A DNA stretch of 64,000 bases from an uncultured Mycoplasmatota bacterium (GCA_946494015.1 CAMMBL010000001.1:1699-65698); one strand, 5' to 3'. Counted from the stretch's first letter, positions 11,285 to 62,042 are shown. A program made the numbers and translations. The notes: generated by a model not told the origin, from the letters alone.

Positions 11285-12235
11285 TTGATAGAATTTGAAA
11301 AACCAATTTATAAAATTACTGATTATGTAGAAAATAATTTTTATGGCAAATTTGAACTTGAACCATTAGAAAGAGGTTTTGGAACAACTTTAGGAAATGC
11401 TCTAAGGAGAGTTATGTTATCATCATTGCCAGGTAGTGCAATTAGTGCTGTTAAAATTGATGGTGTTTTACATGAATTTCAAACTATAGATGGTGTTATT
11501 GAAGATGTAACTACAATAATATTAAATCTAAAAGGTGTAGTTATTAAAAACCATACTGAAGGTAATAAAATTATCACTTTGAAAAAAGAAGGCGAGGGCG
11601 TGGTTACAGCTGCTGATATAGAAGCTGATAGTGATATTGAAATCATTAATAAAGATCATGTTATTGCTAATCTTGCTAAAGGTGGTTCCTTAAACATGCA
11701 AATGATAGTTACTAACGGTCGTGGTTATGTAAAAAGTGAAGATGCTACTATTAGAGAAGATGATAAAAAGAATGGTTTTATTGCAATGGATGCAATTTAT
11801 TCTCCAATTGAAAGAGTATCATATGAAGTAGAAAGTGCAAGAGTTGGTCAAGATGAAAGCTATGATAAATTAGTAATGGAAGTATGGACAAATGGTTCTA
11901 TTAAACCAGAAGAATCAATCGCTCTAGCTGCTAAAATTTTAATTGAACACTTTAAATTAGTAACAGATCTTAGTGATATATCAAATGTTAGTAGCATGAT
12001 GATTGAAAAAACTGAAGATCCTAAAACAAAAACTTTAGAAACTTCTATAGAAGATTTAGATTTTTCAGTAAGAGCATATAATTGCTTAAAAAGAGCTGGA
12101 GTTCACACATTACAAGATTTAGTTAATAAAAGTGAAAATGATATGATGAAAATCCGTAATTTAGGAAAGAAATCATTAAAAGAAGTATTAGATAAAATTA
12201 AAGAGTTAGGGCTTGACCTAAGAGATGATGATTAA
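11285..12235 (+). CDS. rpoA: DNA-directed RNA polymerase alpha subunit (TTG start after GGGAGG; the track ORF starts earlier inside rpsK)
   Basis: Reads LIEFEKPIYKITDY...; alpha N-terminal and C-terminal domains present. Confidence 0.92.
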   Translation: MIEFEKPIYKITDYVENNFYGKFELEPLERGFGTTLGNALRRVMLSSLPGSAISAVKIDGVLHEFQTIDGVIEDVTTIILNLKGVVIKNHTEGNKIITLKKEGEGVVTAADIEADSDIEIINKDHVIANLAKGGSLNMQMIVTNGRGYVKSEDATIREDDKKNGFIAMDAIYSPIERVSYEVESARVGQDESYDKLVMEVWTNGSIKPEESIALAAKILIEHFKLVTDLSDISNVSSMMIEKTEDPKTKTLETSIEDLDFSVRAYNCLKRAGVHTLQDLVNKSENDMMKIRNLGKKSLKEVLDKIKELGLDLRDDD

Positions 12236-12247
12236 GGAGGTAAACTT

Positions 12248-12619
12248 ATGGCATATAGAAAATTAGGCGTTGATAATAAGCACAGAAGAAGTATGTTAGC
12301 AACTCTTACTAAACAAGTTATTATGACAGGTAAAATAACAACTACTGAAACAAGAGCTAAAGAAGTTAGAAAAGCTGTTGATACTATGATTACTTTTGGT
12401 AAGAAGGGTGATCTTGGTAGTCGTCGTAGAGCCCTAGCTTTTGTACATAATGATAAAGCTGTTGTAAATAAAGTATTTAATGAACTAGCTCCTCGTTATG
12501 CAGCTAGAAATGGTGGCTATACCCAAATATTAAAATTAAAAGAACGTCGTGGAGATGGTGCATTACTTGCTATTATTAAACTAGTTGATGAAGAAGATGT
12601 TAAACAAGAGACAAAATAA
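12248..12619 (+). CDS. rplQ: 50S ribosomal protein L17
   Basis: 123 aa; last gene of the alpha operon. Confidence 0.95.
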   Translation: MAYRKLGVDNKHRRSMLATLTKQVIMTGKITTTETRAKEVRKAVDTMITFGKKGDLGSRRRALAFVHNDKAVVNKVFNELAPRYAARNGGYTQILKLKERRGDGALLAIIKLVDEEDVKQETK

Positions 12620-48835: not shown

Positions 48836-48886
48836 TTTGTTCTTTTCTAATTATTATTATATAATAAATAAAAGGAGAGATGATTT

Positions 48887-50071
48887 ATGCTATTATTAGC
48901 TGTTAATTCTGGTAGTAGTACTTTAAAATTTAGATTATATGAGATGCCAGAAGAAAAAGTTATTACTAAAGGAAGTTTTGAACGGATTGGCTCTGTTGAT
49001 AGTGATTATACTATTAGAATTAATAATGAAAAAATATATGTAAAAAAAGAAATTAAAACTCATAAAGACGCTGTTGATATTTTATTAACAGAACTTGTGG
49101 AAAAAAATATTGTTAAAAGTCTTGATAATATTAAAGCAGTAGGACATAGAATAGTCCATGGAGGTTCACTATATTCTCATTCTGTTATTATTACTGATAG
49201 AGTAATTAATGAACTTGAAAATATAGAAGATTTAGCTCCTTTACATAATCCCGCTGCTATTAGTGGAATTAAAGCTTTTATTGAAGAAATACCTAGTGCT
49301 ACTATGGTTGCTTGTTTTGATACTGCTTTTCATCAAACTATTAAAGAAAAAGATTTTTTATATCCAGTTCCTTATGAATGGTATGTAAAATATGGTGTTA
49401 GAAAATATGGTTTTCATGGTTTGTCACATCAATATATAACTAATAAAATGAAAGGTATAATTGGTTTTGATGGTAATTTAATTATTTGTCATATAGGTAA
49501 TGGTGCAAGCATTACGGCTGTAAAAGAAGGAATATGTATTGATACTTCTATGGGATTTACTCCTAATGCTGGTATTATGATGGGAACTAGAAGTGGTGAT
49601 ATTGATTATAGTCTTATTGGTTATATTATGAAAAAAACAGGTTTATCATATACTGATATAGATACAATATTAAATAAAAAAAGTGGTCTTGAAGGTATTG
49701 CTGGTATGAGTGATTTACGAGATATAGATAGAGCTTATCTTGCTAAAGAAAATAAAGTAATACTTGCTATAGATATGTATACAGAACGTATTGCTGAATA
49801 TATTGCTAAATACTTCTTAAAGCTTGGTAAAGTAGATGGTATTGTATTTACAGCCGGAGGAGGAGAAAATGATCCTATTATTAGAAAAGAAGTTCTTAAT
49901 AAATTAAAACCTTTAGGAGTAGAACTTGATGAGAAATTAAATGAAGAAACTATTGTTAGAAAAGATAAAGAAGGACTTATTACTACTAAAGATTCATCTA
50001 TTGCAAGTTATGTCTTATCAACTGATGAAGAATTAGTAATTGCTAGAGATACTTATAATTTATCTAAGTAA
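48887..50071 (+). CDS. ackA: Acetate kinase (paralog 1)
   Basis: N-terminal LAVNSGSSTLKF; acetokinase family motifs. Confidence 0.88.
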   Translation: MLLLAVNSGSSTLKFRLYEMPEEKVITKGSFERIGSVDSDYTIRINNEKIYVKKEIKTHKDAVDILLTELVEKNIVKSLDNIKAVGHRIVHGGSLYSHSVIITDRVINELENIEDLAPLHNPAAISGIKAFIEEIPSATMVACFDTAFHQTIKEKDFLYPVPYEWYVKYGVRKYGFHGLSHQYITNKMKGIIGFDGNLIICHIGNGASITAVKEGICIDTSMGFTPNAGIMMGTRSGDIDYSLIGYIMKKTGLSYTDIDTILNKKSGLEGIAGMSDLRDIDRAYLAKENKVILAIDMYTERIAEYIAKYFLKLGKVDGIVFTAGGGENDPIIRKEVLNKLKPLGVELDEKLNEETIVRKDKEGLITTKDSSIASYVLSTDEELVIARDTYNLSK

Positions 50072-50074
50072 TAA

Positions 50075-50106
50075 AATAACTTGCTAAAAGCAAGTTGTTT
50101 TATTTT
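50075..50106 (+). terminator. Rho-independent terminator
   Basis: AACTTGCT-aaaa-GCAAGTT then TTTTATTTT. Confidence 0.65.
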
Positions 50107-50192
50107 AAATAATACCTTCTTATCAACTTTCTTGCCTAATACTTTGAAAATATAGTATAATACTAATAGATTTAAAGAAAGAAGGAATAATT

Positions 50193-51368
50193 ATGAAAAT
50201 AATGTCTGTTAATGCTGGAAGTAGTTCATTAAAATTTAGTCTATTTAATATGGATCAAAAAGAAGTAATTGCTTCTGGTTATTTTGAACGTGTAGGATTA
50301 GAAGGTAGTTTTTATACAATTAAATATAATGGAGATAAAATAAAAGAAGAAGTAGAAATGCCAAATCATACAGTAGCAGTTGAAGTAATGTTAGATCGTT
50401 TAATAACTTTAGGTATTATTAAATCTTTAGAGGAAATAGATGGAATTGGACATAGAATTGTTCATGGCTATACTTATGATCATTCAGTTATTATTACTGA
50501 TAAAGTAATAGAAGATATCAAATCATATGCTGATTTCGCTCCTTTACATAATCCCGCTCATATTCTAGGTATAGAAGCTTGTAAAAAATCATTACCTAAT
50601 GTTCCTATGGTAGCAGTTTTTGATACTGCTTTCCATCAAACTATGCCAAAAGAAAACTATATATATCCAGTTCCTTACAGTTGGTATGAAAATTATGGAG
50701 TACGTAAATATGGTGCTCATGGAACTAGTCATAAATATATTTCTAAACGCTTAAGTGAAATTATGAATACTAAAGATTTAAAAGTAATAGTATGTCATTT
50801 AGGAAGTGGTTGTTCTTTAAGTGCCATTAAAAATGGTATTTGTCTTGATACTTCTATGGGCTTTACTCCTTTAGCTGGTGTTATGATGGGAACTAGAAGT
50901 GGTGATGTAGATCCTTCTATTATTCCTTATGTAATGGAAAAAGAAGGCTTAAATGCTAAAGAAGTAGTTGATATGTTAAATAAAAAATCAGGACTTTTAG
51001 GAGTTAGTGAAAAATATAGTGATTACCGTGATATTAGAAAAGCTATGGAAGAAGGCGATGAACAAGCTATTTTAGCTAATAAAATATTTGTTAATACTGT
51101 AGTAAAATATATTGCTAATTATTATGTAGAACTTGAAGGAATTGATGCTTTAGTATTTACAGCTGGCTTAGGAGAAAATAGTTCCCCAGCTCGTCATGAT
51201 ATCGTTTCTAAATTAGGTATATTAGGTATAAGTATTGATGAAGAAAAAAATAATATAACAGGAGAAGAAGTAGAGCTTACTGGAAAAGATTCTAAAGTTA
51301 AAGTTTATGCTATTCCAACTAATGAAGAATTAATGATTGCTCTTGAAACTTTAAATTTAATTAGATAG
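50193..51368 (+). CDS. ackA: Acetate kinase (paralog 2)
   Basis: MSVNAGSSSLKF; acetokinase family. Confidence 0.88.
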   Translation: MKIMSVNAGSSSLKFSLFNMDQKEVIASGYFERVGLEGSFYTIKYNGDKIKEEVEMPNHTVAVEVMLDRLITLGIIKSLEEIDGIGHRIVHGYTYDHSVIITDKVIEDIKSYADFAPLHNPAHILGIEACKKSLPNVPMVAVFDTAFHQTMPKENYIYPVPYSWYENYGVRKYGAHGTSHKYISKRLSEIMNTKDLKVIVCHLGSGCSLSAIKNGICLDTSMGFTPLAGVMMGTRSGDVDPSIIPYVMEKEGLNAKEVVDMLNKKSGLLGVSEKYSDYRDIRKAMEEGDEQAILANKIFVNTVVKYIANYYVELEGIDALVFTAGLGENSSPARHDIVSKLGILGISIDEEKNNITGEEVELTGKDSKVKVYAIPTNEELMIALETLNLIR

Positions 51369-53367: not shown

Positions 53368-53646
53368 TTATAGAACAATAGCAATCATATTATTAGAGCC
53401 TTTATTAACTACTTTAGAAAGAGTTTGTTGTAGTTTAAATCTAATATTATCTGGCATAGAATTAATCTTAGCTTGGATACCTTCTTGAACTATATTATCT
53501 AAACTACGACCAAATATTTCACTTTTCCAAATTTCACTAGGATTATTTTCATAATCTCTCATCAAATAATCAATTAACTCTTTACTTTGAACTTCACTAC
53601 CAATAATAGGTTCAAAAGTAGAATTAACATCAACTCTAATCATATG
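53368..53646 (-). CDS. spoIVA: Stage IV sporulation protein A, C-terminal fragment, separated from the N-terminal part by the intervening element
   Basis: Reads (H)MIRVDVNSTFEPIIGSEVQSKELIDYLMRDYENNPSEIWKSEIFGRSLDNIVQEGIQAKINSMPDNIRFKLQQTLSKVVNKGSNNMIAIVL, which matches the SpoIVA C-terminus as I recall it from Bacillus subtilis. Confidence 0.85.
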   Translation of the reverse strand, partial: HMIRVDVNSTFEPIIGSEVQSKELIDYLMRDYENNPSEIWKSEIFGRSLDNIVQEGIQAKINSMPDNIRFKLQQTLSKVVNKGSNNMIAIVL

Positions 53647-55270
53647 CATAAGAACTATTAAACTGCTGTGATTTGTTTTTTATATAATCGGCTTCTATTT
53701 CGGTGCCGACTTTTAGGTATATTTTTAATTTAACTTTCTTTTTATCATCCATATGATATACGACAATTTTATCTAATAATTCAAATAATACTTCATCACT
53801 AGGATTATTAACTTTATTTTCAATTAACAATTCTAATTTTTTTATTTCTTCTTCCATATTATTAGCTTTTAATTCTTCTTCTTTAATGACATTTAATTCT
53901 TTTTCTATTTTACTTAATCTTAAATTACAGTCATCATTTCTTTCTTTAAACTCTTTATCACTAATAATTTCATTTATATTATGACTTAATAATTTATCTT
54001 TTTCCTTTTTAATCTTTTCTATTTCGCTCAACTTTTTATTTTTTTCTTTCTCAAAATCTCTTAAACTTATATTTTCTCTATATAAATTAGTTAAATTATA
54101 AATAATTGACTTTCTTTGATTTATAAAATCTATTAAATTATGTCTTAATATTTTAACTAATTCTTTTTCATATAAAACTGGTGTTTTACATTTATCATCT
54201 TTACTTCTATTATTATGAGGACATATCCATACGACTTCATCATCTTTTGTCTTATAATTATATACTTTTCTATGAAAATGTCTATTATGTTCATTACATA
54301 CTATTTTACCACTAAATTTATATCTATTTTGATAAACTCTTTTATCAACATCTTTATACTTATCACTTCTTTGATTATATATCTTTTGTGCTAAATCCCA
54401 TATTTCTTCACTTACAATAGGGGGAACAGTATCATAATCTTTATACATAATCCAATCTTCTTCATCTTTTCTAACAATTGTTTTTAATTTATAGTCAACA
54501 ATCGTTGTTTTATTTCCACAATAATAACCTTTATATTTTGGGTTTTTAATAATATTTGCTACTGTTGTCATAGCAAGTACATTTCCATTTCTATTTTTAA
54601 AACCTTCTTTATATAATTCCCTTGCTACTGCTGCCATTCCATATTTACCACTACAATATAATTCAAATATTCTTTTAACCATTTTTGCTTCTTCTTCATT
54701 TATAACTAACTTACCATCTTTTTTATCATAACCCCATATATCATTATTACCTAAAACTCTGCCACTCTTAATAGATCTTTTAAAACCAAATTTAACTCTT
54801 TCTGATAATTTCCTAACTTCATCTTGTGCTAATGATGTCATTATTGTTAGTCTTAATTCTGAATCAGCGTCTAATGTATTTATATTATCATTTAAGAAAT
54901 ATACACCAACACCATCTTTTAATAATTCTCTTGTATTTTTAATACTATCTAATGTATCCCTTGCAAACCTTGATACTTCCTTTGTGATAATTAAATCAAA
55001 TTTACCTTCTTTAGCATCTTTAATCATTTTATTAAAACTATCTCTTTTATTTGTTGATGTCCCACTTATTCCTTCATCAACATAACCTTCAACAAATTCC
55101 CAATTTTCTTTTTCTCTTATCATTTCTTCAAAGAAATTAACTTGATTTTCTAATGAATTTAATTGTTCATATTTATCTGTTGAAACCCTTGCATAATAGG
55201 CAACTCTTAATTTTAAATCAAATACCGTTTTCCCAGTTTTAAATTCTTCTCTTATTTTATATAAATCCAT
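53636..55270 (-). CDS. Large serine recombinase (SpoIVCA/CisA-like); its last codons span the left junction core
   Basis: N-terminal resolvase domain with YARVSTD; recombinase domain; zinc ribbon (CNEHNRH...WICPHNNR...C); C-terminal coiled coil; 544 aa. Confidence 0.9.
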   Translation of the reverse strand: MDLYKIREEFKTGKTVFDLKLRVAYYARVSTDKYEQLNSLENQVNFFEEMIREKENWEFVEGYVDEGISGTSTNKRDSFNKMIKDAKEGKFDLIITKEVSRFARDTLDSIKNTRELLKDGVGVYFLNDNINTLDADSELRLTIMTSLAQDEVRKLSERVKFGFKRSIKSGRVLGNNDIWGYDKKDGKLVINEEEAKMVKRIFELYCSGKYGMAAVARELYKEGFKNRNGNVLAMTTVANIIKNPKYKGYYCGNKTTIVDYKLKTIVRKDEEDWIMYKDYDTVPPIVSEEIWDLAQKIYNQRSDKYKDVDKRVYQNRYKFSGKIVCNEHNRHFHRKVYNYKTKDDEVVWICPHNNRSKDDKCKTPVLYEKELVKILRHNLIDFINQRKSIIYNLTNLYRENISLRDFEKEKNKKLSEIEKIKKEKDKLLSHNINEIISDKEFKERNDDCNLRLSKIEKELNVIKEEELKANNMEEEIKKLELLIENKVNNPSDEVLFELLDKIVVYHMDDKKKVKLKIYLKVGTEIEADYIKNKSQQFNSSYAYD

Positions 55271-55284
55271 TTATATCATCACCT

Positions 55285-55560
55285 TTATACTTTAATTATT
55301 TCTGCTATTGGCTTTATTCTTTCTAATAATATCTTTTCAACTTTCTCATATAACTCTTTTGATATATTTCCTTTTTCATATAATTCTTTATTTATTTTTA
55401 ATTCTAATTCATAAGAACATAATACATTTTTAAATATATTAAAAGGCTTCATATCTTTTATAGTTTCATCAATATATGTGGTATCAATATTTCCAAACTC
55501 ATCTTCTTCATATTCTTTTACAACTTTGTCATTTTCATCTAATTCATAATAATATGCCAT
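55285..55560 (-). CDS. Small acidic protein upstream of the recombinase (candidate recombination directionality factor or unknown)
   Basis: 91-aa ORF, co-oriented and adjacent to the LSR. Confidence 0.3.
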   Translation of the reverse strand: MAYYYELDENDKVVKEYEEDEFGNIDTTYIDETIKDMKPFNIFKNVLCSYELELKINKELYEKGNISKELYEKVEKILLERIKPIAEIIKV

Positions 55561-55680
55561 ATATATTCCTCCTATTTAAGATTATTCGCAATCATAAATA
55601 ATATAATAATTATTTATCTACAAAATGCATAAATAAATTATAAATTACTCATAATAATAAATTGCCCCTAAATATTCTCC

Positions 55681-55726
55681 TATATATATTATACGATTTT
55701 TATTTTTCAAAAATTGCCATTTTGAG
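55681..55726. repeat. Copy 1 of a ~44-bp direct repeat (ATATATATTATACGATTTTTATTTTTCAAAAATTGCCATTTT) in the 5' region of the small-ORF/recombinase unit
   Basis: Near-identical copy at 60431..60474, upstream of the Rep-like gene. Confidence 0.6.
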
Positions 55727-55773
55727 ATTTATTTTTAAAATTTATTTAATTTTTTAGCATTTTTTATCGATTT

Positions 55774-56376
55774 TTAATCATTTTGGCTATTTTTTATTAA
55801 ATTATAAAATGTATTATTCTTTAAACCTAATAATTCCATTGCTTCTTTACTTTTTATTTTTTTATCTTTCCATTTACTCATAACTTCATCATAATTACTT
55901 GGCTTTTCTATTTTAGGTCTTCCAAATTTAACACCTTTTTTTAAAGCATTTTCTATTCCTTCTTTTTGTCTTAACTTTATAAAACTTCTCTCTTGCTCTG
56001 CAACATAACTTAATATTTGCAAAACTAAATCACTTATAAATGTTCCTAATAAATCTTTATTATTTCTCGTATCTAATAAAGGCATATCAATAACGACTAT
56101 ATCTGCTTTTATATTTTTTGTTATATCTTTCCATTCTTCAATAATCATATTATAATTTCTACCTAATCTATCAATACTCTTAATTACTAATAAATCATTT
56201 TCTCTTAATATATGCTTTAATATTAAATAATTTTCTCTATTAAAATCTTTTCCACTTTGCTTATCTACATAAATATCTCTTTCATCAATATTAAAATCTT
56301 TAAAGGCATTTATTTGTCTTTCTTCATTTTGTTCTTTACTGCTAACCCTTGCATACCCAAAAACTTTATTATTCAT
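55774..56376 (-). CDS. Small serine recombinase (resolvase/invertase family) with C-terminal HTH
   Basis: GYARVSSKEQ catalytic motif; 200 aa. Confidence 0.85.
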   Translation of the reverse strand: MNNKVFGYARVSSKEQNEERQINAFKDFNIDERDIYVDKQSGKDFNRENYLILKHILRENDLLVIKSIDRLGRNYNMIIEEWKDITKNIKADIVVIDMPLLDTRNNKDLLGTFISDLVLQILSYVAEQERSFIKLRQKEGIENALKKGVKFGRPKIEKPSNYDEVMSKWKDKKIKSKEAMELLGLKNNTFYNLIKNSQND

Positions 56377-56385
56377 ATGTAAAAC

Positions 56386-56619
56386 CTACCTTGCTAAATA
56401 ATTACTAAATTCCCTAAAAATTCTATCAAATATGCTATCTTCAAATGTTCCTACTAATTCGAGCTTAATATTTTTTTCTCTTAATTCGGCTAAAAAATTA
56501 GAGCAAGCAATAGTAATAGGGAAATCATTTGCATTATTTTCTTCTATTGCCGTCATTATAGTATCTACATAACCATCGCATACCATTGTTACAATATTTC
56601 TTAAAATTTCTTCTTTCAT
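56386..56619 (-). CDS. Hypothetical small protein
   Basis: ORF only. Confidence 0.35.
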   Translation of the reverse strand: MKEEILRNIVTMVCDGYVDTIMTAIEENNANDFPITIACSNFLAELREKNIKLELVGTFEDSIFDRIFREFSNYLAR

Positions 56620-56804
56620 TCATTACACCCCCTTACTATGAAAAAATATTATATTTTCACTTTTTCAAAAAAACAACTCTTTTATTTAAAAATCTCAAAA
56701 AACTTTTCAAACATTTAAAAACTCCAATATATACTTTTTCAAATAAAAAAAAGACTTAATTCATATCAAAATTAAATCTTTATAAACCTTTACTTTTTTA
56801 AATA

Positions 56805-57590
56805 CTATTTCCATTCATAATCAATAAATAAATAATTTCTAATCTCTTTATATAAAATACTTATATTAGATTCATTGCTCAATAAAATATGATTATATGT
56901 ATTATATATTCCAGGCATATTAAAATCTTTTTCTCCTTTATTATACCTTTCAAAATATTCTTTAAAAAAATCTTCTAATACTTTTTTAATATTTACAGAA
57001 GTATTAAAATTTATATTATGTTTCATTTGAAGTAATATTTTTTGAAATCTCGTAGGCAAAAAAGGATTTTCAATAAAACTATTAAGTTGGTTCATATATT
57101 CTATAAATTTTTTGGATATATATATCATTTCAATATCAATATCTCCATTTTTTGCTTTCTTAAAATTTTCTTCCTTGTAGTTATTTATTTCTTTTTCAGA
57201 TAATTCTTTGGAGAAAGGCTGCAATATTTCAATAAATTCTGAATTTTCTTTTTGAGAAACAATTCTTTGCCCACATCTTCTATTCTTCAACATCTCTTTT
57301 ATTTCTTTCTGATTTTTTAATACAAAACCATAGTCAATTAAAAATTGTAAAACATTCAACTCTAATAATTCATAGTAATCAACATCTAATTTAATAAAAT
57401 TTAAAATTTCTTCTAATAATACCGCTTGCTTTTTTATAGTCTCATTTCTTATTGGTTGCAATACTGTTGATTTTGCTCTCTTATATGTTAATACAGCAAT
57501 TATTGTTGCTATTAAAGTAAAAATTATCCATAACACATCTTTAATCCACACAACATTTGTTAATATAAAATTATATATATTAGACCACAT
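56805..57590 (-). CDS. Hypothetical protein with N-terminal TM segment
   Basis: ORF; hydrophobic N-terminus. Confidence 0.45.
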   Translation of the reverse strand: MWSNIYNFILTNVVWIKDVLWIIFTLIATIIAVLTYKRAKSTVLQPIRNETIKKQAVLLEEILNFIKLDVDYYELLELNVLQFLIDYGFVLKNQKEIKEMLKNRRCGQRIVSQKENSEFIEILQPFSKELSEKEINNYKEENFKKAKNGDIDIEMIYISKKFIEYMNQLNSFIENPFLPTRFQKILLQMKHNINFNTSVNIKKVLEDFFKEYFERYNKGEKDFNMPGIYNTYNHILLSNESNISILYKEIRNYLFIDYEWK

Positions 57591-57645
57591 AATATCACCA
57601 CGACAATATTATACAGTATTTTTACTTTTTTTCACAACTTACCTT

Positions 57646-58176
57646 TTAAATTTCATATAAATTTTTAATTTCTTCATTAGGCAATATCAATGTAAAATCA
57701 ATATCATATTTTAATACTAAATAATTTAATAACTCTACAACTTTTTTTGCAATATCATTATGCTTATAACCTTGTACCTCAGTTCCTAAACTAACACTAA
57801 TAATACTTTTATACATATTCTTTTTTGCTTCAATTATTATTTTATAATAACTAAATAATAAATCATTTATTGCGACATTAACATCTTCATATTCATAATA
57901 ATTAGGACATAAAATATGCAATATATCTATACCAATATCAAAACCTGGGCTAAATCTAACTTCATTTACTTTCATATTATCTTTATACTGCTTTTTACAA
58001 TATTCTTCTAATAATTCTTTATTAGCTTTTTCATATATTAAATTACAAATACCACTTCCACAAAACATATTTTTATTTGCACTATTAACTATTAAATCTT
58101 TGCTATCTAAATAATCTAAAATATTTCCACAAACAATATTTAATTTTGCCACAATAAACCACCTTAATAATATCAA
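57646..58176 (-). CDS. Macro-domain protein (ADP-ribose binding/hydrolase-like); true start probably near VAKLNIV
   Basis: GNILDY...LIVNSANKNMFCGSGICNLIYEKA resembles the macro-domain VNAAN...GGGV signature. Confidence 0.55.
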   Translation of the reverse strand: MILLRWFIVAKLNIVCGNILDYLDSKDLIVNSANKNMFCGSGICNLIYEKANKELLEEYCKKQYKDNMKVNEVRFSPGFDIGIDILHILCPNYYEYEDVNVAINDLLFSYYKIIIEAKKNMYKSIISVSLGTEVQGYKHNDIAKKVVELLNYLVLKYDIDFTLILPNEEIKNLYEI

Positions 58177-58307
58177 TTACATAAATATAATATATATCTA
58201 ATTATACCTTCAATTTTTAGCAAATAACAATTCATTTAATCAATTTAATATAATTATATAATAAAATACAAAAAGTCCTTTAAAACTGCTCTAAATTATC
58301 AAATATT

Positions 58308-58874
58308 CTATTCATAAAAATTAAGCTGCTTTTCAATACATATATAATTATTTTTATCTTTCTTATTTCTATCACTTATAATATTTTCATATTTATTTGA
58401 ACTATCTAAATTTCTTTTAATAACATTAACAAATAAATTCCATTCTTTATCAGTAGGCAACTCATCACTAAAAACAAACATAAAATCAAAATTTTCTCCA
58501 TGGCTTAATAATCTCGACTTTATACTTTTTTCATTACTATTACCAACCATAAAACCATATTTTAAACCATTATATAATTCTTTATGTGCCTTTGCTTTAT
58601 TGCTATAAGTAATAACATCATGGGTAGAGTAGGTATTATATTTACTTTCAATTATTACCTTTGGCACTAAATTTTTTCCACGCTTTTCTTTTATTACTAA
58701 ATCAACTTCATATTTCCTATATTTAATTTTTTCTTCTTCATTTTTATAGTCTTCTATATATACCGAATAAGGCACCTTATCAAAACAACTTATTTCATAT
58801 TTATTATTATCTAATTCATCTTTTAATTTATCACATATTTTCATAGTCCATTTATCTTCTAATCTATCTCTCAT
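58308..58874 (-). CDS. Hypothetical protein with possible PD-(D/E)xK nuclease-like motif
   Basis: EVDLVI...VIIESKY arrangement; weak. Confidence 0.35.
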   Translation of the reverse strand: MRDRLEDKWTMKICDKLKDELDNNKYEISCFDKVPYSVYIEDYKNEEEKIKYRKYEVDLVIKEKRGKNLVPKVIIESKYNTYSTHDVITYSNKAKAHKELYNGLKYGFMVGNSNEKSIKSRLLSHGENFDFMFVFSDELPTDKEWNLFVNVIKRNLDSSNKYENIISDRNKKDKNNYICIEKQLNFYE

Positions 58875-58997
58875 ATCTAAAACTCCTTAACTTATATAAA
58901 TTATATCATAAAATATATAATATTAAGCATACAAATATAACTAATATTGCTATCACTAATTTCTAATAATGAGACAATTATATTAGGAGGCAATATT

Positions 58998-59327
58998 ATG
59001 AAAAACAACTTAAAAGAAATTAGAGTTTCAAAGAATTTATTACAAACAAAAGTAGCAATAGACTTAAATACAACCCAAGAAACTATATCTTCTTATGAAA
59101 CTGGCAGAGTATTCCCAAGTTCCGATATGCTCATTAAACTTGCTGATTATTATAATACATCTATCGATTATTTATTATGCCGAACTAAATATAATATGCC
59201 AATAGATGATATTAAACCTAATAACATTAGCGATTACGACTTTATATTATTAAATAAAATAAATAAATTATCTAATATAAATAAAGCAAAAGTAGAAGCA
59301 TATATAGATGGCTTAAATGACAACTAA
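58998..59327 (+). CDS. XRE-family HTH transcriptional regulator (ATG 58998 after GGAGG; track start 58947)
   Basis: LKEIRVSKNLLQTKVAIDLNTTQETISSYETG is a Cro/C1-type HTH. Confidence 0.75.
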   Translation: MKNNLKEIRVSKNLLQTKVAIDLNTTQETISSYETGRVFPSSDMLIKLADYYNTSIDYLLCRTKYNMPIDDIKPNNISDYDFILLNKINKLSNINKAKVEAYIDGLNDN

Positions 59328-59567
59328 CTTCTAAATATATACATATTTATCTAAAACACCTTAATATTTCCTTATTTTATAATCAAATATCAAATAATAT
59401 ATATAAAAATATCTGCTAAATTATATACCTATCTTTATACTTATTAACCTTATTATTTTTCCAATTCTTTATACTTTACTATATATAATTTATATATTTA
59501 TTTTTATACATATTTATTAAATATTATATGATAGCTAAAAACTATCTTTTTTTATGCTATATTTCCT

Positions 59568-60404
59568 TTAAAACGGGGAATTATCATCTATTATTCTATT
59601 GTTACTTATCTGTACTTTATTATCACTTTTAATATTATCATAATTTTCTGCTATCTTATTTCTTCTTACCATTGCCATAAATTCAAGTGCCTTTTTTTCA
59701 TCTTCTTCTTTACTAATATTATAAAAATATTCAGATATTTCCTTAAATTTACTTTCTATCTTATTATATTTTTCTATAAATTCTTCATCCGTCATAGGAC
59801 TTTTTCTTTGTTCTTTATTTAATTTTCTTATTTTATTTTTTAATTTTAAATATTCACTACAATACTGCTTTAAACTATATTTTAATGGCTCTCCATTACC
59901 ATAATTATAATTACAAAATAATCTTTTAGCACTTTGATCTATAAAATAATCAGCCAATTTTATATTACAATTCTTTTTATATACTTTCTTGTTATTACTA
60001 TTATTTTCACTAATATTATTATCAACATCTATCCAATTTTTATCTATATAATTTTTAATAACATTTCTAAAAGCATAACTAGGACAACTAACTAATAATA
60101 TATGTAAATGCCAATCCGTCTTATAGTTTCCATTATATAATCTATTAGCAAATAAATCTTCTATTTCTAATTCTTTTCTTTGCCCACCAACTTTGCCATT
60201 ATTTTTAATTTTTAATGAACTAACACCTTTTTTAACATTACTACTAACTATCAATGCTTGAGCATACCAACCTTTATCTGCATTTTTCTTACACATATAT
60301 CTAATAAACTCTCTTAATCTCTTTGCATATAAAAATGCTTCTTCGCCACTTTTAAATTTTTTATTAACTTCTATACTCGCTATTCCTAATTTTTTCTTCG
60401 CCAT
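59568..60404 (-). CDS. HUH-motif protein, probable rolling-circle replication initiator (Rep-like)
   Basis: DWHLHILLVSCPSY (H-U-H-U-U-U) and downstream Tyr-rich region; 278 aa. Confidence 0.45.
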   Translation of the reverse strand: MAKKKLGIASIEVNKKFKSGEEAFLYAKRLREFIRYMCKKNADKGWYAQALIVSSNVKKGVSSLKIKNNGKVGGQRKELEIEDLFANRLYNGNYKTDWHLHILLVSCPSYAFRNVIKNYIDKNWIDVDNNISENNSNNKKVYKKNCNIKLADYFIDQSAKRLFCNYNYGNGEPLKYSLKQYCSEYLKLKNKIRKLNKEQRKSPMTDEEFIEKYNKIESKFKEISEYFYNISKEEDEKKALEFMAMVRRNKIAENYDNIKSDNKVQISNNRIIDDNSPF

Positions 60405-60430
60405 AATACATACCTTCTTTTAATACCTTC

Positions 60431-60474
60431 ATATATATTATACGATTTTTATTTTTCAAAACTTGCCATTTTCC
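60431..60474. repeat. Copy 2 of the ~44-bp direct repeat, immediately upstream of the Rep-like gene
   Basis: ATATATATTATACGATTTTTATTTTTCAAAACTTGCCATTTT. Confidence 0.6.
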
Positions 60475-60669
60475 CATATTTTCTGCAAATTTCTTAAATT
60501 TTTCTCATTTTAGCCATTTTAAAGCATCATTGCCAAATTATAATATAAATTATTAAATAACTTATTAAACCTTTAAAACAGCCAAATAAATATGCTTATA
60601 TTATCTCTAAACAAAAAAAACAATTCTTATCTCTAAAAATTGCCGTATCTAATAATAATTAAACTAATT

Positions 60670-61968
60670 TTATATAACTTTCAACTTCATAAATAAATTC
60701 AAATGGCTTCCTACTTCTTGCATTAACCCATCTATCAAATATTTCCACTGCATTTTTATAGTTGTTATATGAATAGAAGGGGCTACAGCTTTAAGTTTAA
60801 CTCCATATCTAGGACCTTGTTTAATAATCTCAGGAGTATCTAATTTCATATCAGCTAATGTAGGAGTAGCTACACCATAACCTGTTTGTTTTACCATCTT
60901 TAAAGCATATTTAATTTGATCATATTCCCTTCTTGCTTCTTCATAATCTTGAAATAAAGATAAAAGTCCCGCTTTACTAGTAACATCTATTTTAATAATA
61001 TCTCTTAATACATCATTATATAAAGAGCTAGGAGCTTCAAGATTAATTGTAACAATACCAGTAGCTGGATCAACACAAGATAGATAAGCTTTTTCTATTA
61101 TTTCATTACTCCTAAAATGATCGGTAATCTTTTCAATATCTCTTAACTTATCAACTTCCATAACACTTTCTCTAATTGCTTCAATATAACCTTTTTTAAT
61201 TTCATTATTAGCATTTAAAATAGCAATCCATTCAGGCATATTAACTTTAACTTCTAAAACTGGAAATTCATATAAAGCTTCTCTTAGGATACTAGTCATT
61301 TCTCGTTCATTCATCTGATCAACATTAATAGGTAACACAGGAACATTATAAGTATCTTTAATAGATTCAGCTAATCTTTCTGTTTCTGGTAAAGTAGGAT
61401 GAGTTGTATTTAAAATAATAATAAATGGTTTCCCAATCGCTTTTAATTCTTCAATTACTCTTTGTTCAGCTTCTAAATAATCACTTCTATTAAATTCACC
61501 AATAGAACCATCAGTAGTAACAACAATTCCAATCGTAGAATGATCTTTAATAACTTTTTCTGTTCCTACTTCCGCTGCTTCTACAAAAGGTATTTCTTCA
61601 TCATACCATGGCGTTTTAACCATTCTAGGTCCATTCTCATCACTAGCCCCTTTAGCATTAGGAATAACATATCCAACACAATCAACTAGTCTAATATTAC
61701 AACTGAAATCATCAATATTAACTTTAGCAGCTTGATTAGGAATAAACTTAGGTTCAGCAGTCATAATAGTTTTACCTTGGGCACTTTGAGGAATCTCATC
61801 AAGTGTTCTTTTCTTCTCATACTCATCTTCAATATAAGGTACAACTAAAGTTTCCACCATCCTCTTAATAAAAGTACTCTTACCAGTTCTAACCGCTCCA
61901 ACAACTCCTAAATAAATATCACCACCACTTCTTAAAGCAATATTTTTAATAATTTCCGTTTTTTCCAT
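60670..61968 (-). CDS. spoIVA: Stage IV sporulation protein A, N-terminal fragment (ATPase domain). Uninterrupted reading runs into the element and appends a 32-aa unrelated tail.
   Basis: GDIYLGVVGAVRTGKSTFIK Walker A; ...LVDCVGY...; ...MVKQTGYGVATP...KAVAPSIH, then diverges (ITTIKMQW...). Start MEKTEII after AAGGTG. Confidence 0.9.
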   Translation of the reverse strand: MEKTEIIKNIALRSGGDIYLGVVGAVRTGKSTFIKRMVETLVVPYIEDEYEKKRTLDEIPQSAQGKTIMTAEPKFIPNQAAKVNIDDFSCNIRLVDCVGYVIPNAKGASDENGPRMVKTPWYDEEIPFVEAAEVGTEKVIKDHSTIGIVVTTDGSIGEFNRSDYLEAEQRVIEELKAIGKPFIIILNTTHPTLPETERLAESIKDTYNVPVLPINVDQMNEREMTSILREALYEFPVLEVKVNMPEWIAILNANNEIKKGYIEAIRESVMEVDKLRDIEKITDHFRSNEIIEKAYLSCVDPATGIVTINLEAPSSLYNDVLRDIIKIDVTSKAGLLSLFQDYEEARREYDQIKYALKMVKQTGYGVATPTLADMKLDTPEIIKQGPRYGVKLKAVAPSIHITTIKMQWKYLIDGLMQEVGSHLNLFMKLKVI

Positions 61969-61984
61969 AATCATCACCTTTTCT

Positions 61985-62020
61985 TATATTCTAATTAATA
62001 GTATTCTTACAAATTTTAAA
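61985..62020 (-). promoter_or_regulatory. Possible sigma-E-type mother-cell promoter of spoIVA
   Basis: Minus strand tcATATTt-13/14 nt-gAATACTA upstream of the RBS; approximate match only. Confidence 0.3.
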
Positions 62021-62042
62021 TATGAAAAAAAGGAGCGAAAAA

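What the first reader, a model, noticed from the sequence alone, without database searches (positions are those of the whole stretch)
53368..61968. spoIVA is split by a 7.1-kb skin-like intervening element carrying a large serine recombinase
- Seen in sequence: the N-terminal ~400 aa of SpoIVA (Walker A GKST through KAVAPSIH) lie at 60670..61968. The conserved C-terminal ~90 aa (MIRVDVNSTFEPIIGSEVQSKEL...GSNNMIAIVL) lie 7 kb away at 53368..53646 on the same strand. Both breakpoints share the core ATATG (53642..53646 and 60767..60771). Joining there reconstitutes ...APSIHMIRVDVNS... in frame, matching the SIHMIKVDVES continuity of B. subtilis SpoIVA as I recall it.
- The intervening DNA begins with a SpoIVCA-type large serine recombinase whose 3' end crosses the junction. 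This is the architecture of sporulation-specific intervening elements (skin in sigK and similar), which are excised in the terminally differentiated mother cell.
- spoIVA is a mother-cell (sigma-E) coat-basement gene, so mother-cell-specific excision would be biologically coherent.
- I am not aware of a described spoIVA-interrupting element; that is from memory, not a search.
Basis: partly seen in the sequence, partly recalled or inferred. Interest (0 to 1): 0.92.

Follow-up and report, generated by a model that had tools for sequence, protein, structure and literature searches.

The report
Mobile element splitting spore-coat gene spoIVA
The essential spore-coat gene spoIVA of an uncultured gut bacterium is cut in two by a 7.1-kb mobile element whose own recombinase can rejoin it exactly; this looks like a new target for the known "skin"-type sporulation switches and is widespread in gut Clostridia, but excision during sporulation has not been shown.

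Summary
spoIVA on the minus strand is split at codons His402/Met403 by a 7,125-bp element (core CATAT at 60767..60771 and 53642..53646). Joining the halves gives a 491-494-aa ORF that matches TIGR02836 end to end at 686 bits. A conspecific strain (flanks 99.7-99.8% nt identical) has the empty site, and its attB equals attL-left plus attR-right to the base.

The element carries a 544-aa large serine recombinase (LSR) at its 3' edge, a small SHOCT-like ORF (RDF candidate), a second small serine recombinase, a cI-like repressor, a Macro protein and an HUH Rep-like protein. It has no phage structural genes.

About 25 of 80 related LSR loci from diverse Clostridia and 'Bacilli' MAGs, including the cultured Ruminiclostridium papyrosolvens C7, abut a spoIVA 3' fragment broken at the same codon. 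Their attP arms form a conserved inverted repeat centred on a CA dinucleotide. The same element (99.9-100% nt) sits at this codon in at least 3 species. Sister LSRs target sigK, spoVD and a dac gene.

All split spoIVA fragments are intact, and one co-diverging pair shows dN/dS of 0.02 or less. Mother-cell-specific excision is inferred, not demonstrated. I found no published report of an interrupted spoIVA. Verdict: a new member of a known kind.

The parts
60767..61968 (-). spoIVA 5' segment (codons 1-402: Walker A GAVRTGKST, ATPase and middle domains). As integrated, the ORF reads on to a stop at 60670 and adds 33 foreign residues.
   Evidence: Pfam PF09547 and PF20438; TIGR02836 alignment of the joined ORF; 99.7% nt identity to the uninterrupted allele L169 up to position 60767.
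61998..62023 (-). Candidate sigmaE-type promoter of spoIVA (TCATATT-13 nt-AATACTAT).
   Evidence: Read from the sequence. The consensus is recalled from B. subtilis work. The composite motif is not enriched in the window (6 observed vs 5.1 expected), so support is weak.
60767..60771 (-). attL core CATAT. The inferred crossover dinucleotide is CA at 60771-60770 (His402 codon).
   Evidence: The symmetry centre of the family attP arms falls on CA (worked by hand).
60745..60766 (-). attL P' arm (AACAACTATAAAAATGCAGTGG), an imperfect inverted repeat of the P arm.
   Evidence: The arm is nearly identical in L002, whose SpoIVA is only 44% identical to the window's.
60431..60503 (-). Copy B of a repeated promoter/operator-like sequence (AAAATGGCAAnTTTTGAAAAATAAAAATCGTATAAT), ending about 33 nt upstream of the Rep-like gene.
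   Evidence: the repeat finder family D1; exact 36-mer match.
59568..60404 (-). 278-aa HUH Rep/relaxase-like protein (invariant H99-x-H101, Y142, Y153) with a C-terminal long helix.
58947..59327 (+). cI-like HTH_3 repressor, the only gene on the opposite strand (gene callers give 109 aa).
   Evidence: Pfam HTH_3; PHROG transcriptional repressor families; gene call in L166.
58308..58874 (-). 188-aa protein of unknown function (cargo).
   Evidence: No hit in Pfam, NCBIfam, PHROGs or PADLOC.
57646..58176 (-). Macro-domain protein (ADP-ribose binding/hydrolase family; cargo).
   Evidence: Pfam PF01661, E 5e-11.
56805..57590 (-). 261-aa protein of unknown function. This is a variable cargo slot: it is replaced by unrelated DNA in the otherwise 97-100% identical element of L001.
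56386..56619 (-). 77-aa protein of unknown function.
55774..56376 (-). Small serine recombinase (200 aa, invertase/resolvase type).
   Evidence: Pfam Resolvase, E 3e-23; PHROG 125 DNA invertase, E 3e-47.
55682..55754 (-). Copy A of the repeated promoter/operator-like sequence with a perfect TATAAT, about 128 nt upstream of the SHOCT-like ORF.
55579..55604 (-). sigmaE-like composite (TTATATT-13 nt-AATAATCT) 19 nt upstream of the SHOCT-like ORF. It resembles the spoIVA upstream motif.
   Evidence: This is post hoc and not statistically supported.
55285..55560 (-). 91-aa SHOCT-like protein, 15 nt upstream of the recombinase: candidate recombination directionality factor.
   Evidence: Pfam SHOCT_2, weak. 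A conserved motif lies directly upstream of the recombinase in 13/26 spoIVA-linked and 55/133 other loci. The exact sequence is seen on 146 public contigs.
53636..55270 (-). Large serine recombinase, 544 aa (catalytic Ser30 in YARVSTD; Resolvase, Recombinase and Zn-ribbon domains). Its stop codon lies 4 nt beyond the att core, in host sequence.
53647..53670 (-). attR P arm (CAGCAGTTTAATAGTTCTTATG).
   Evidence: 16/21 inverted-repeat match with the P' arm.
53642..53646 (-). attR core CATAT.
53368..53646 (-). spoIVA 3' segment (codons 403-494, SpoIVA_C domain, plus stop).
   Evidence: Pfam PF20439 76/76; 99.8% nt identity to the uninterrupted allele from position 53654 downward.

Best explanation
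A 7.1-kb non-phage integrative element has inserted, by large-serine-recombinase (LSR) site-specific recombination, into a conserved 40-50-bp site spanning codons His402/Met403 of spoIVA.

Shown:
- The insertion is exact to the base.
- The recombinase clade is specific for this site across many taxa.
- The element is currently mobile between species.

Inferred:
- In carriers, the truncated SpoIVA lacks its C-terminal domain and should be non-functional.
- Spore formation would therefore require attL x attR recombination by the recombinase together with a directionality factor, most likely the SHOCT-like 91-aa ORF just upstream of it.
- That recombination would release a 7.1-kb circle and restore an intact spoIVA.
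- As with skin/sigK and SPbeta/spsM, this is expected to happen in the terminally differentiated mother cell, so the forespore keeps the element.
- Expression of the SHOCT-recombinase pair could come from a sigmaE-like promoter just upstream, from read-through from the spoIVA sigmaE promoter (nearly all element genes are co-directional and no terminator is predicted), or from a repressor-controlled promoter duplicated in front of the two transcription units.
- The HUH Rep-like protein may replicate or mobilise the excised circle, which would explain spread between species.

The confidence of 0.65 refers to the full statement, including sporulation-linked excision. The structural part (a precise, site-specific, mobile LSR element splitting spoIVA) I hold at about 0.97.
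For: - Precise split and in-frame reconstitution.
- Empty site in a conspecific strain whose attB equals attL-left + attR-right.
- Canonical LSR domains and invariant catalytic residues.
- 21 attR and 10 attL sites from other genomes break at the same codon. Their P/P' arms form an inverted repeat (ACTTCTGTTTGT...CA...ACAAACAGAAGT) centred on CA.
- The element is 97-100% identical where host spoIVA is 72-90% identical, and the step falls exactly at the att sites.
- The identical recombinase is followed by SpoIVA_C in every sufficiently long contig, in at least 3 host backgrounds.
- All 22 neighbouring spoIVA 3' fragments are intact.
- L012 (R. papyrosolvens C7) vs L021: spoIVA dS 0.37-0.57 with dN/dS 0-0.017, and LSR dS 0.43 with dN/dS 0.065. 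This indicates co-divergence under purifying selection while the gene is split.
- Sister LSRs abut sigK (the classical skin arrangement), spoVD and dac fragments, and target tracks LSR phylogeny.
- CATAnnnT (-10 of sigmaE/K type) is enriched upstream of the SHOCT-like ORF: 11/66 vs 70/1336 control ORFs, p = 0.001, and 7/13 among spoIVA-linked loci.
- Interrupted and intact alleles are both common in public data.
Against: - There is no direct evidence of excision. Exact and family-consensus attP junction searches found nothing in the metagenome or viral contig collections.
- The window's own copy is too recent for selection analysis (99.9-100% identical copies in several species).
- The window's SHOCT upstream lacks the CATA motif. 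Its sigmaE-like composite is post hoc and occurs at chance frequency in the window.
- The SHOCT-like ORF is present next to the recombinase in only about half of the loci, and no known RDF was found to be SHOCT-like.
- The duplicated TATAAT promoter/operator and the cI-like repressor suggest control independent of sporulation.
- spoIVA is itself an early sigmaE gene, so excision would have to be very prompt.
- The host is an uncultured organism whose ability to sporulate is unknown.
Confidence: 0.65

Rival explanations
1. Reversible switch not tied to the mother cell. The element excises and re-integrates under its own repressor-controlled circuit (stress-induced or stochastic), as with comK/phi10403S in Listeria or the yin element of C. 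botulinum. Carriers would then be sporulation-OFF until excision occurs in the whole cell line.
For: The element has a cI-like repressor and a 36-nt promoter/operator-like sequence with a perfect TATAAT, duplicated in front of the Rep-like gene and the SHOCT-recombinase pair. An HUH Rep-like protein could maintain an excised circle. Both occupied and empty sites occur in one species at 99.7% identity. The yin element is reported to excise at all growth phases (PMC10747680).
Against: The whole recombinase clade is confined to mother-cell sporulation genes (spoIVA, sigK, spoVD, dac), which is hard to explain without a link to the terminal cell. sigmaE/K-type -10 motifs are enriched upstream of the RDF candidate in relatives. 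The empty-site strain differs from the window by 0.2-0.3% in its flanks, whereas the occupied strains differ by 0.01-0.04%, so it looks like a different strain rather than an excisant.
Confidence: 0.2
2. Dead-end insertion. A site-specific mobile element has recently knocked out spoIVA, and carriers are asporogenous lineages on the way to losing sporulation. There is no programmed rejoining.
For: The window's copy is very recent, so intact ORFs are uninformative for this particular genome. No attP junction was found in public contigs. Loss of sporulation is known in gut Firmicutes (general knowledge).
Against: All 22 split spoIVA 3' fragments across distant taxa are intact. There is strong purifying selection on both halves and on the recombinase in the co-diverging pair L012/L021. 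Minimal 3-kb remnants still keep an intact recombinase (L026). The interrupted allele is seen on about 60 contigs, so it is not rare or transient. spoVIF lies adjacent and is intact.
Confidence: 0.1
3. Assembly or binning artefact (a chimeric contig joining unrelated DNA inside spoIVA).
For: The source is a metagenome-assembled contig.
Against: The identical structure is found in at least 4 independent assemblies from different samples. Both junctions were recovered in many other genomes, including isolate genomes. The junctions have canonical att architecture.
Confidence: 0.01

Closest known systems
skin element of Bacillus subtilis / Clostridioides difficile (sigK-intervening element; recombinase SpoIVCA / CD1231, RDF Skr / CD1234)
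   Same: Both are elements inside the coding sequence of a mother-cell sporulation gene. Both have a large serine recombinase at the edge next to the 3' gene fragment and a small ORF just upstream of the recombinase, and in-frame reconstitution is predicted on excision. Sister recombinases of the same clade (42-49% identical) sit in sigK in Oscillospiraceae genomes.
   Different: The target is spoIVA, a structural ATPase needed early under sigmaE, not the late sigma factor. Excision cannot therefore act as a sigmaE-to-sigmaK timing gate and must happen earlier. The element is not prophage-like. The RDF candidate is SHOCT-like and unproven. Sporulation-specific excision has not been shown.
gin element in gerE of Bacillus cereus ATCC 10987 (Abe et al. 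2017, PMC5595907)
   Same: Both are non-prophage intervening elements in a mother-cell sporulation gene. Both carry more than one serine recombinase gene and cargo genes of unknown function.
   Different: gin is 28.6 kb with three large recombinases and a restriction-modification system. The element here is 7.1 kb with one large and one small serine recombinase, a Macro protein and an HUH Rep-like protein. gin excision was demonstrated experimentally; this one's was not.
SPbeta prophage in spsM (SprA/SprB) and phi3T in kamA
   Same: Both use large-serine-recombinase integration into a mother-cell-expressed gene. The large relatives of this element in spoIVA (L090, 108 kb, with RNR, UvsX-like, methyltransferase and sigma-factor genes; L004) are phage-like.
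   Different: The window's element has no phage morphogenesis or lysis genes. spsM and kamA are dispensable for making a spore, whereas spoIVA is essential in B. subtilis and C. difficile (established knowledge).
Heterocyst-specific elements of Anabaena (nifD/XisA, fdxN/XisF, hupL/XisC)
   Same: Both are developmentally excised elements in genes used only by a terminal cell type. XisF is a large serine recombinase (weak NCBIfam similarity, 72.7 bits against a cut-off of 375). As in Anabaena, several elements can interrupt the same pathway; here, two can interrupt the same gene in L001/L026.
   Different: The phylum, developmental programme and targets all differ, and the recombinase is not an XisF orthologue.
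Regulated gene integrity (RGI) clades of Mageeney et al. 2020 (PMC7192596)
   Same: This is a tight integrase clade that disrupts the same protein domain at the same position in multiple independent integrations across genus and class boundaries, which is their operational criterion for RGI.
   Different: spoIVA is not among the 24 clades they list.

Membership tests
Sporulation gene-intervening (skin-like) elements | Inserted within the coding sequence of a sporulation gene expressed in the mother cell | tested here: met
   spoIVA is split at codon 402/403. That spoIVA is a sigmaE mother-cell gene is established knowledge from B. subtilis and C. difficile; it was not tested in this organism.
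Sporulation gene-intervening (skin-like) elements | [quoted passage not shown] | tested here: met
   The LSR lies at 53636..55270 and overlaps attR.
Sporulation gene-intervening (skin-like) elements | Precise excision restores an intact reading frame | tested here: met
   The in-silico join gives a full-length TIGR02836 match. A natural empty-site allele is 490/491 identical and has the predicted attB. The excision event itself was not observed.
Sporulation gene-intervening (skin-like) elements | Excision occurs during sporulation and only in the mother cell | not testable with these tools
   This needs DNA from staged sporulating cultures. Public-contig searches for attP found nothing.
Sporulation gene-intervening (skin-like) elements | Recombinase or RDF under a sporulation sigma factor (sigmaE/sigmaK) | tested here: inconclusive
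   CATAnnnT is enriched upstream of the SHOCT-like ORF in relatives. The window has only a post-hoc sigmaE-like composite at chance frequency, plus a vegetative-looking TATAAT promoter.
Sporulation gene-intervening (skin-like) elements | Cognate recombination directionality factor | tested here: inconclusive
   A SHOCT-like small ORF lies directly upstream of the recombinase in 13/26 spoIVA-linked loci. There is no functional or structural test, and no literature links SHOCT domains to RDFs.
Large serine recombinases (phage-type serine integrases) | N-terminal resolvase catalytic domain with a serine nucleophile | tested here: met
   PF00239, E 2e-31. R28-V29-S30-T31 are invariant in 13 homologues. 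The closest solved catalytic domain is 3g13.
Large serine recombinases (phage-type serine integrases) | Recombinase domain plus zinc-ribbon domain with a coiled-coil insert | tested here: met
   PF07508, E 9e-22. PF13408 scores 24.4 bits, just under its 25.3 cut-off, but C325/H328/C350/C361 are invariant. The coiled-coil was not modelled.
Large serine recombinases (phage-type serine integrases) | Short att sites with imperfect inverted repeats around a 2-bp crossover, and no long target duplication | tested here: met
   There is a 5-bp shared core. The P/P' arms are inverted repeats centred on CA, both in the window and in 20+ relatives.
SpoIVCA orthologue (B. subtilis skin recombinase) | Specific sequence relationship to SpoIVCA rather than to other LSRs | not tested
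   No SpoIVCA sequence or model was available in the tools used. Only family-level membership is shown.
SpoIVA (TIGR02836) | Full-length match above the equivalog cut-off, with a Walker A motif | tested here: met
   686 bits against a cut-off of 460, profile positions 1-492/492; GAVRTGKST is present.
Prophage / defective prophage | Phage structural, packaging or lysis genes | tested here: not met
   A PHROGs scan of all cargo proteins hit only integrase, invertase and repressor families. Larger relatives (L090, L004) do carry phage-type genes.
Integrative mobilizable / rolling-circle element | HUH relaxase or Rep protein | tested here: inconclusive
Anti-phage defence island | Proteins matching known defence systems | tested here: not met
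   PADLOC hit only the HTH regulator.

The most novel reading that the evidence does not exclude
A single radiating clade of large serine recombinases has specialised on mother-cell sporulation genes, with at least four targets: sigK, spoIVA, spoVD and a dac gene. Within it, spoIVA-specific elements are widespread in gut Clostridia, actively jump between species, and can even split spoIVA into three pieces. Under this reading, excision of the spoIVA element is an obligatory, element-controlled checkpoint at the very first step of coat and cortex assembly. Mobile elements would then gate (or create heterogeneity in) entry into spore morphogenesis across much of the gut spore-forming microbiota, rather than only late sigmaK activation in a few model species.
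Probability: 0.4. Interest if true: 0.8.

Novelty: new member of a known kind. Interest (0 to 1): 0.62.

Why it matters
SpoIVA is the one coat-morphogenetic protein conserved in all endospore formers. It acts at the start of coat and cortex assembly.

If its gene is routinely split by an element that must be excised in the mother cell, developmental DNA rearrangement would control an early structural step of sporulation, not only late regulatory or accessory steps.

The comparative data add three points:
- The phenomenon is common in gut Clostridia and uncultured 'Bacilli' lineages.
- It is driven by one recombinase clade that also targets sigK, spoVD and a dac gene.
- The element is moving between species now.

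Practical consequences:
- Genome annotation pipelines will call spoIVA (and spoVD) pseudogenes or miss them, so sporulation capacity will be under-predicted in MAG surveys.
- The clade offers a set of natural, orthogonal LSR/att pairs with well-defined attB and attP sites.
- Cultured carriers (R. papyrosolvens C7, Pseudoflavonifractor strains) make the hypothesis directly testable.

Tried and rejected
- **attP searches.** I searched for the excised-circle junction (attP) in public contigs, using both the exact 28-mer of this element and a family consensus pattern. Both found 0 hits in metagenome contigs and viral contigs. This is uninformative rather than negative: the collections may not contain the relevant samples, and the consensus pattern was strict.
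- **Virome record MT837325 (7,121 bp, LSR 42-51% identical).** It was a candidate packaged circle, but it is a high-GC, unrelated element with no spoIVA fragment or matching att arms. Rejected.
- **Sigma-70 promoter and terminator scan.** Promoter-like sites occur at chance level (85 vs 84.9 expected) and no terminators were found.
- **SigmaE-like composite shared by the spoIVA and SHOCT upstream regions.** It is not enriched in the window (6 vs 5.07 expected) and I keep it only as a hint.
- **Defence-island idea for the cargo.** No PADLOC hits.
- **Prophage idea for this element.** No PHROG structural hits.
- **L033 as a possible decayed example (no spoIVA 3' part after the recombinase).** The contig ends inside a larger element that carries an extra recombinase, so it is not a counter-example.
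- **dN/dS between the window and L001.** This was meant to test selection during interruption. It is invalid for that purpose because the element was acquired independently (LSR dS 0.03 vs spoIVA dS 0.8), so I used it as evidence of horizontal transfer instead.
- **Abe et al. 2013 (Mol Microbiol).** The paper could not be read.

Full report
**1. The observation**

On the minus strand, ORF 60670..61977 (435 aa; the likely start is ATG 61968) carries the SpoIVA ATPase domain and a SpoIVA middle domain cut off at profile position 167/179. ORF 53368..53649 carries the complete SpoIVA_C domain.

The two junctions read ...CCTTCTATTCATAT|AACAAC... (attL) and ...TCTTATGCATAT|GATTAGAG... (attR). Joining within the core is in frame and gives ...KAVAPSIHMIRVDVNS.... 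The product matches NCBIfam TIGR02836 (stage IV sporulation protein A) over positions 1-492 of 492 at 686 bits, against a cut-off of 460.

Between the halves lie 7,125 bp. The 3'-most gene of the insert (53636..55270) encodes a 544-aa protein with Resolvase, Recombinase and zinc-ribbon domains, which makes it a large serine recombinase (LSR). Its last two codons and stop lie beyond the core, in spoIVA sequence.

**2. It is real and the insertion is exact**

The interrupted arrangement occurs at 99.96-99.99% nt identity in at least four independent assemblies (L166-L168).

Uninterrupted spoIVA genes of 491-493 aa at 94-96% protein identity are abundant in close relatives, one of them named Candidatus Onthousia. 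They have identical synteny: ackA, DHH, GTPase, a 135-aa ORF, spoIVA, Mbeg1-like, spoVIF.

Most tellingly, three sequencing runs contain the same species with an empty site. The flanks are 99.7-99.8% nt identical to the window. The protein is 490/491 identical to my joined ORF. The DNA at the site, GCTGTAGCCCCTTCTATTCATATGATTAGAGTTGATG, equals the left half of attL plus the right half of attR.

**3. A conserved recombinase clade aimed at one codon of spoIVA**

The LSR has thousands of homologues. A scan of one genome per species with an LSR alignment returned 80 loci. In about 25 of them the LSR gene is directly followed by a spoIVA 3' fragment starting at residue ~401-403. In nine of them the 5' part lies 3.1-9.4 kb upstream.

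Carriers include Oscillospiraceae, Lawsonibacter, Pseudoflavonifractor capillosus An827 and P. intestinihominis, Ruminiclostridium papyrosolvens C7, a Defluviitaleaceae MAG and several 'Bacilli' MAGs.

All junctions break at the CAY ATG codons for His402-Met403. The element-side arms form an inverted repeat, acTTCTGTTTGT-N11-CA...N-ACAAACAGAAGT. Its centre of symmetry is the CA dinucleotide, which is the geometry expected of an LSR attP. The window's arms are a diverged version (16/21 symmetric).

In a neighbour-joining tree of 82 LSRs, target gene tracks phylogeny. There is a block of 22 spoIVA-linked LSRs, a separate AT-rich spoIVA cluster containing the window, and distinct clusters for the other targets.

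**4. The sister recombinases target other mother-cell genes**

In the loci without spoIVA, the ORF abutting the LSR is one of the following:

| Abutting fragment | Loci | Model match |
|---|---|---|
| sigK 3' fragment (the classical skin arrangement) | 13 | TIGR02846 positions ~65-227 |
| spoVD 3' fragment | 8 | TIGR02214 positions 410-636/636 |
| D-Ala-D-Ala carboxypeptidase fragment | 2 | DacA/DacD-type models |

The clade as a whole therefore specialises in genes used by the sporulating mother cell.

**5. The element is mobile now**

Against L001 (another 'Bacilli' MAG), nucleotide identity is 72-80% in spoIVA and 97-100% inside the element. The step falls exactly at the att sites. The corresponding dS values are 0.8 for spoIVA and 0.03 for the LSR.

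The identical LSR protein occurs on at least 16 contigs and is followed by SpoIVA_C on every contig that extends past the recombinase gene. This holds in at least three genomic backgrounds. The 1.9-kb SHOCT-LSR end of the element compares with the host DNA as follows:

| Loci | Element 3' end (nt identity) | Adjacent spoIVA 3' fragment | Downstream host DNA |
|---|---|---|---|
| L172, L174 | 100% | 90.5% | 80% |
| L175, L179 | 99.9% | 77% | unrelated |

This shows an active, strictly site-specific integration system.

**6. What the element carries**

In spoIVA orientation, the genes are:
- a cI-like HTH repressor, the only gene on the opposite strand;
- a 188-aa unknown;
- a Macro-domain protein;
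- a 261-aa unknown, which is a swappable slot absent from L001;
- a 77-aa unknown;
- a 200-aa invertase/resolvase-type serine recombinase;
- a 91-aa SHOCT-like protein;
- the LSR.

There are no phage structural, packaging or lysis genes and no recognised defence genes. In that respect it resembles the non-prophage gin element of gerE more than skin.

Larger relatives in spoIVA are phage-like. L090 is a 108-kb IMG/VR contig with RNR, UvsX-like, methyltransferase and sigma-factor genes, and L004 encodes a RecE-like exonuclease. The site therefore hosts a spectrum from large prophages down to a 3.1-kb remnant (L026).

**7. How it probably works**

LSRs integrate (attP x attB) unaided and need a directionality factor to excise; this is established knowledge. 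The best RDF candidate is the SHOCT-like ORF 15 nt upstream of the LSR. The same motif sits directly upstream of the LSR in 13 of 26 spoIVA-linked loci and 55 of 133 others. It is not universal, and I found no literature linking SHOCT domains to RDFs.

Three possible routes to expression were seen:
- **(a) A sigmaE-like composite.** TTATATT-13-AATAATCT lies 19 nt upstream of the SHOCT ORF and resembles the spoIVA upstream motif TCATATT-13-AATACTAT. However, I derived the pattern post hoc, and it occurs at chance frequency in the window.
- **(b) Read-through from the spoIVA promoter.** In the window's subfamily nearly all element genes are co-directional with spoIVA, and no terminator-like site is predicted.
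- **(c) A duplicated promoter/operator.** A 36-nt sequence with a perfect TATAAT sits in front of both the Rep-like gene and the SHOCT-LSR pair, which suggests control by the element's own repressor.

In relatives, CATAnnnT (the -10 shape of sigmaE/sigmaK promoters) is enriched 20-70 nt upstream of the SHOCT-like ORF. The counts are 11/66 against 70/1336 control ORFs (p = 0.001), and 7/13 among spoIVA-linked loci.

**8. Is the split gene still used?**

All 22 spoIVA 3' fragments next to this LSR clade are intact full-length ORFs.

For R. papyrosolvens C7 against a related MAG (L012/L021), synonymous divergence is similar in spoIVA (0.37 and 0.57) and in the LSR (0.43), as expected if the element was inherited vertically. 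dN/dS is 0.017, 0 and 0.065 respectively. That is hard to reconcile with a dead gene.

In public data the interrupted alleles of the Onthousia-like group are seen on about 60 contigs, and intact ones on a similar number.

For the window's own copy the argument is weaker, because the element arrived too recently for selection to be visible.

**9. What is not shown**

Excision itself, its timing and its cell specificity are not demonstrated. Searches for the attP junction in public contigs were empty. The host is uncultured.

spoIVA is an early sigmaE gene, so rejoining must be prompt. Alternatively, the element may impose a delay or heterogeneity on sporulation.

**10. Comparison with the literature**

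Reported intervening-element targets are:
- sigK, spsM, spoVFB, spoVR, gerE, kamA and yabG (PMC4191935, PMC6957869, PMC5595907, PMC10747680);
- cotJC and spoIIID (Galperin et al. 2022 preprint).

The TIGER survey of regulated gene integrity lists sigK, spsM and 19 new cases, none of which is spoIVA (PMC7192596). None of nine full-text searches found an interrupted spoIVA or spoVD. Abe et al. 2013 could not be read, so a mention in the subscription literature cannot be excluded.

**11. Verdict**

The skin-like structural interpretation is strongly supported and generalises to a large recombinase clade. The developmental switch is a well-motivated inference, which I put at about 0.65.

In kind this is a new member (a new target gene) of the known class of sporulation gene-intervening elements. 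It has noteworthy extras: the breadth of the clade, on-going interspecies transfer, a doubly split spoIVA in sister genomes, and spoVD and dac as further apparent targets.

Noticed in passing
window ~61600-61612 (empty site); L001 2018..3680; L026 1..80: In two sister genomes (L001, L026) spoIVA is interrupted a second time at residue ~121 (core around TGGTAT). The second element has its own, different 528-aa large serine recombinase, which ends ~70 nt before the junction. spoIVA is thus split into three pieces there. The window has this second site unoccupied. 317-aa 'middle fragment' gene calls in public data (P0365, P0376) fit the doubly split allele.
   Followed up: partly
L051, L056, L060, L068, L070, L073, L076, L080 (about 11600-12300 in the 21.6-kb loci): Eight 'Bacilli' MAG loci have a recombinase of the same clade directly followed by a spoVD 3' fragment (TIGR02214 positions 410-636). 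This is an apparent spoVD-intervening element, and I found no report of one.
   Followed up: partly
L037 11645..12634; L064 1845..2798: Two loci have the recombinase abutting a D-Ala-D-Ala carboxypeptidase (DacA/DacD-like) fragment that starts at about model position 80. This may be another sporulation-related target (dacB/dacF-like).
   Followed up: no
L006, L013, L022, L025, L034, L038, L039, L044, L046, L050, L065, L066, L069 (plus L027, L067): Thirteen or more Oscillospiraceae/Clostridia genomes carry skin-like elements in sigK. Their recombinases are 42-49% identical to the window's.
   Followed up: partly
window 55682..55754 and 60431..60503: A 73-nt direct repeat has a 36-nt core that is identical apart from one variable base and contains a perfect TATAAT. 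One copy lies upstream of the Rep-like gene and the other upstream of the SHOCT-recombinase pair. It is probably a shared promoter/operator for the element's cI-like repressor.
   Followed up: partly
window 53636..53650 and 60660..60770: The recombinase's C-terminus depends on integration state. It is 544 aa (ending ...YAYD) when integrated, with the stop codon supplied by spoIVA. It is predicted to be 578 aa in the excised circle, because the ORF would read across attP. Public homologues of 544-552 aa fit host-dependent ends.
   Followed up: partly
window 56823..57651: The 261-aa ORF is a swapped cargo slot. It is replaced by unrelated DNA of similar length in L001, whose element is otherwise 97-100% identical.
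   Followed up: no
L090 1..11900 (IMGVR_UViG_2706794911_000004): A 108-kb phage-like contig with ribonucleotide reductase, UvsX-like recombinase, DNA methyltransferase, thymidylate kinase and a phage sigma factor ends in a clade recombinase plus a spoIVA 3' fragment. It looks like a large SPbeta-like prophage using the same spoIVA site.
   Followed up: partly
L008 877..3718: In L008 (Defluviitaleaceae MAG) the recombinase end abuts the spoIVA 5' part in convergent orientation, so the element appears to be inserted the other way round at the same codon. L011 also has a spoIVA fragment on the opposite strand.
   Followed up: no
window 48883..50108 and 50193..51368: There appear to be two acetate kinase-like regions in tandem upstream of the DHH/GTPase genes (68% and 85% nt matches to the two ackA copies of L081).
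   Followed up: no
L017 129..923: One small spoIVA-linked element encodes a Mob_Pre-like relaxase motif (HLHMDEATPHLHIDF). This suggests that some family members are integrative mobilizable elements.
   Followed up: no
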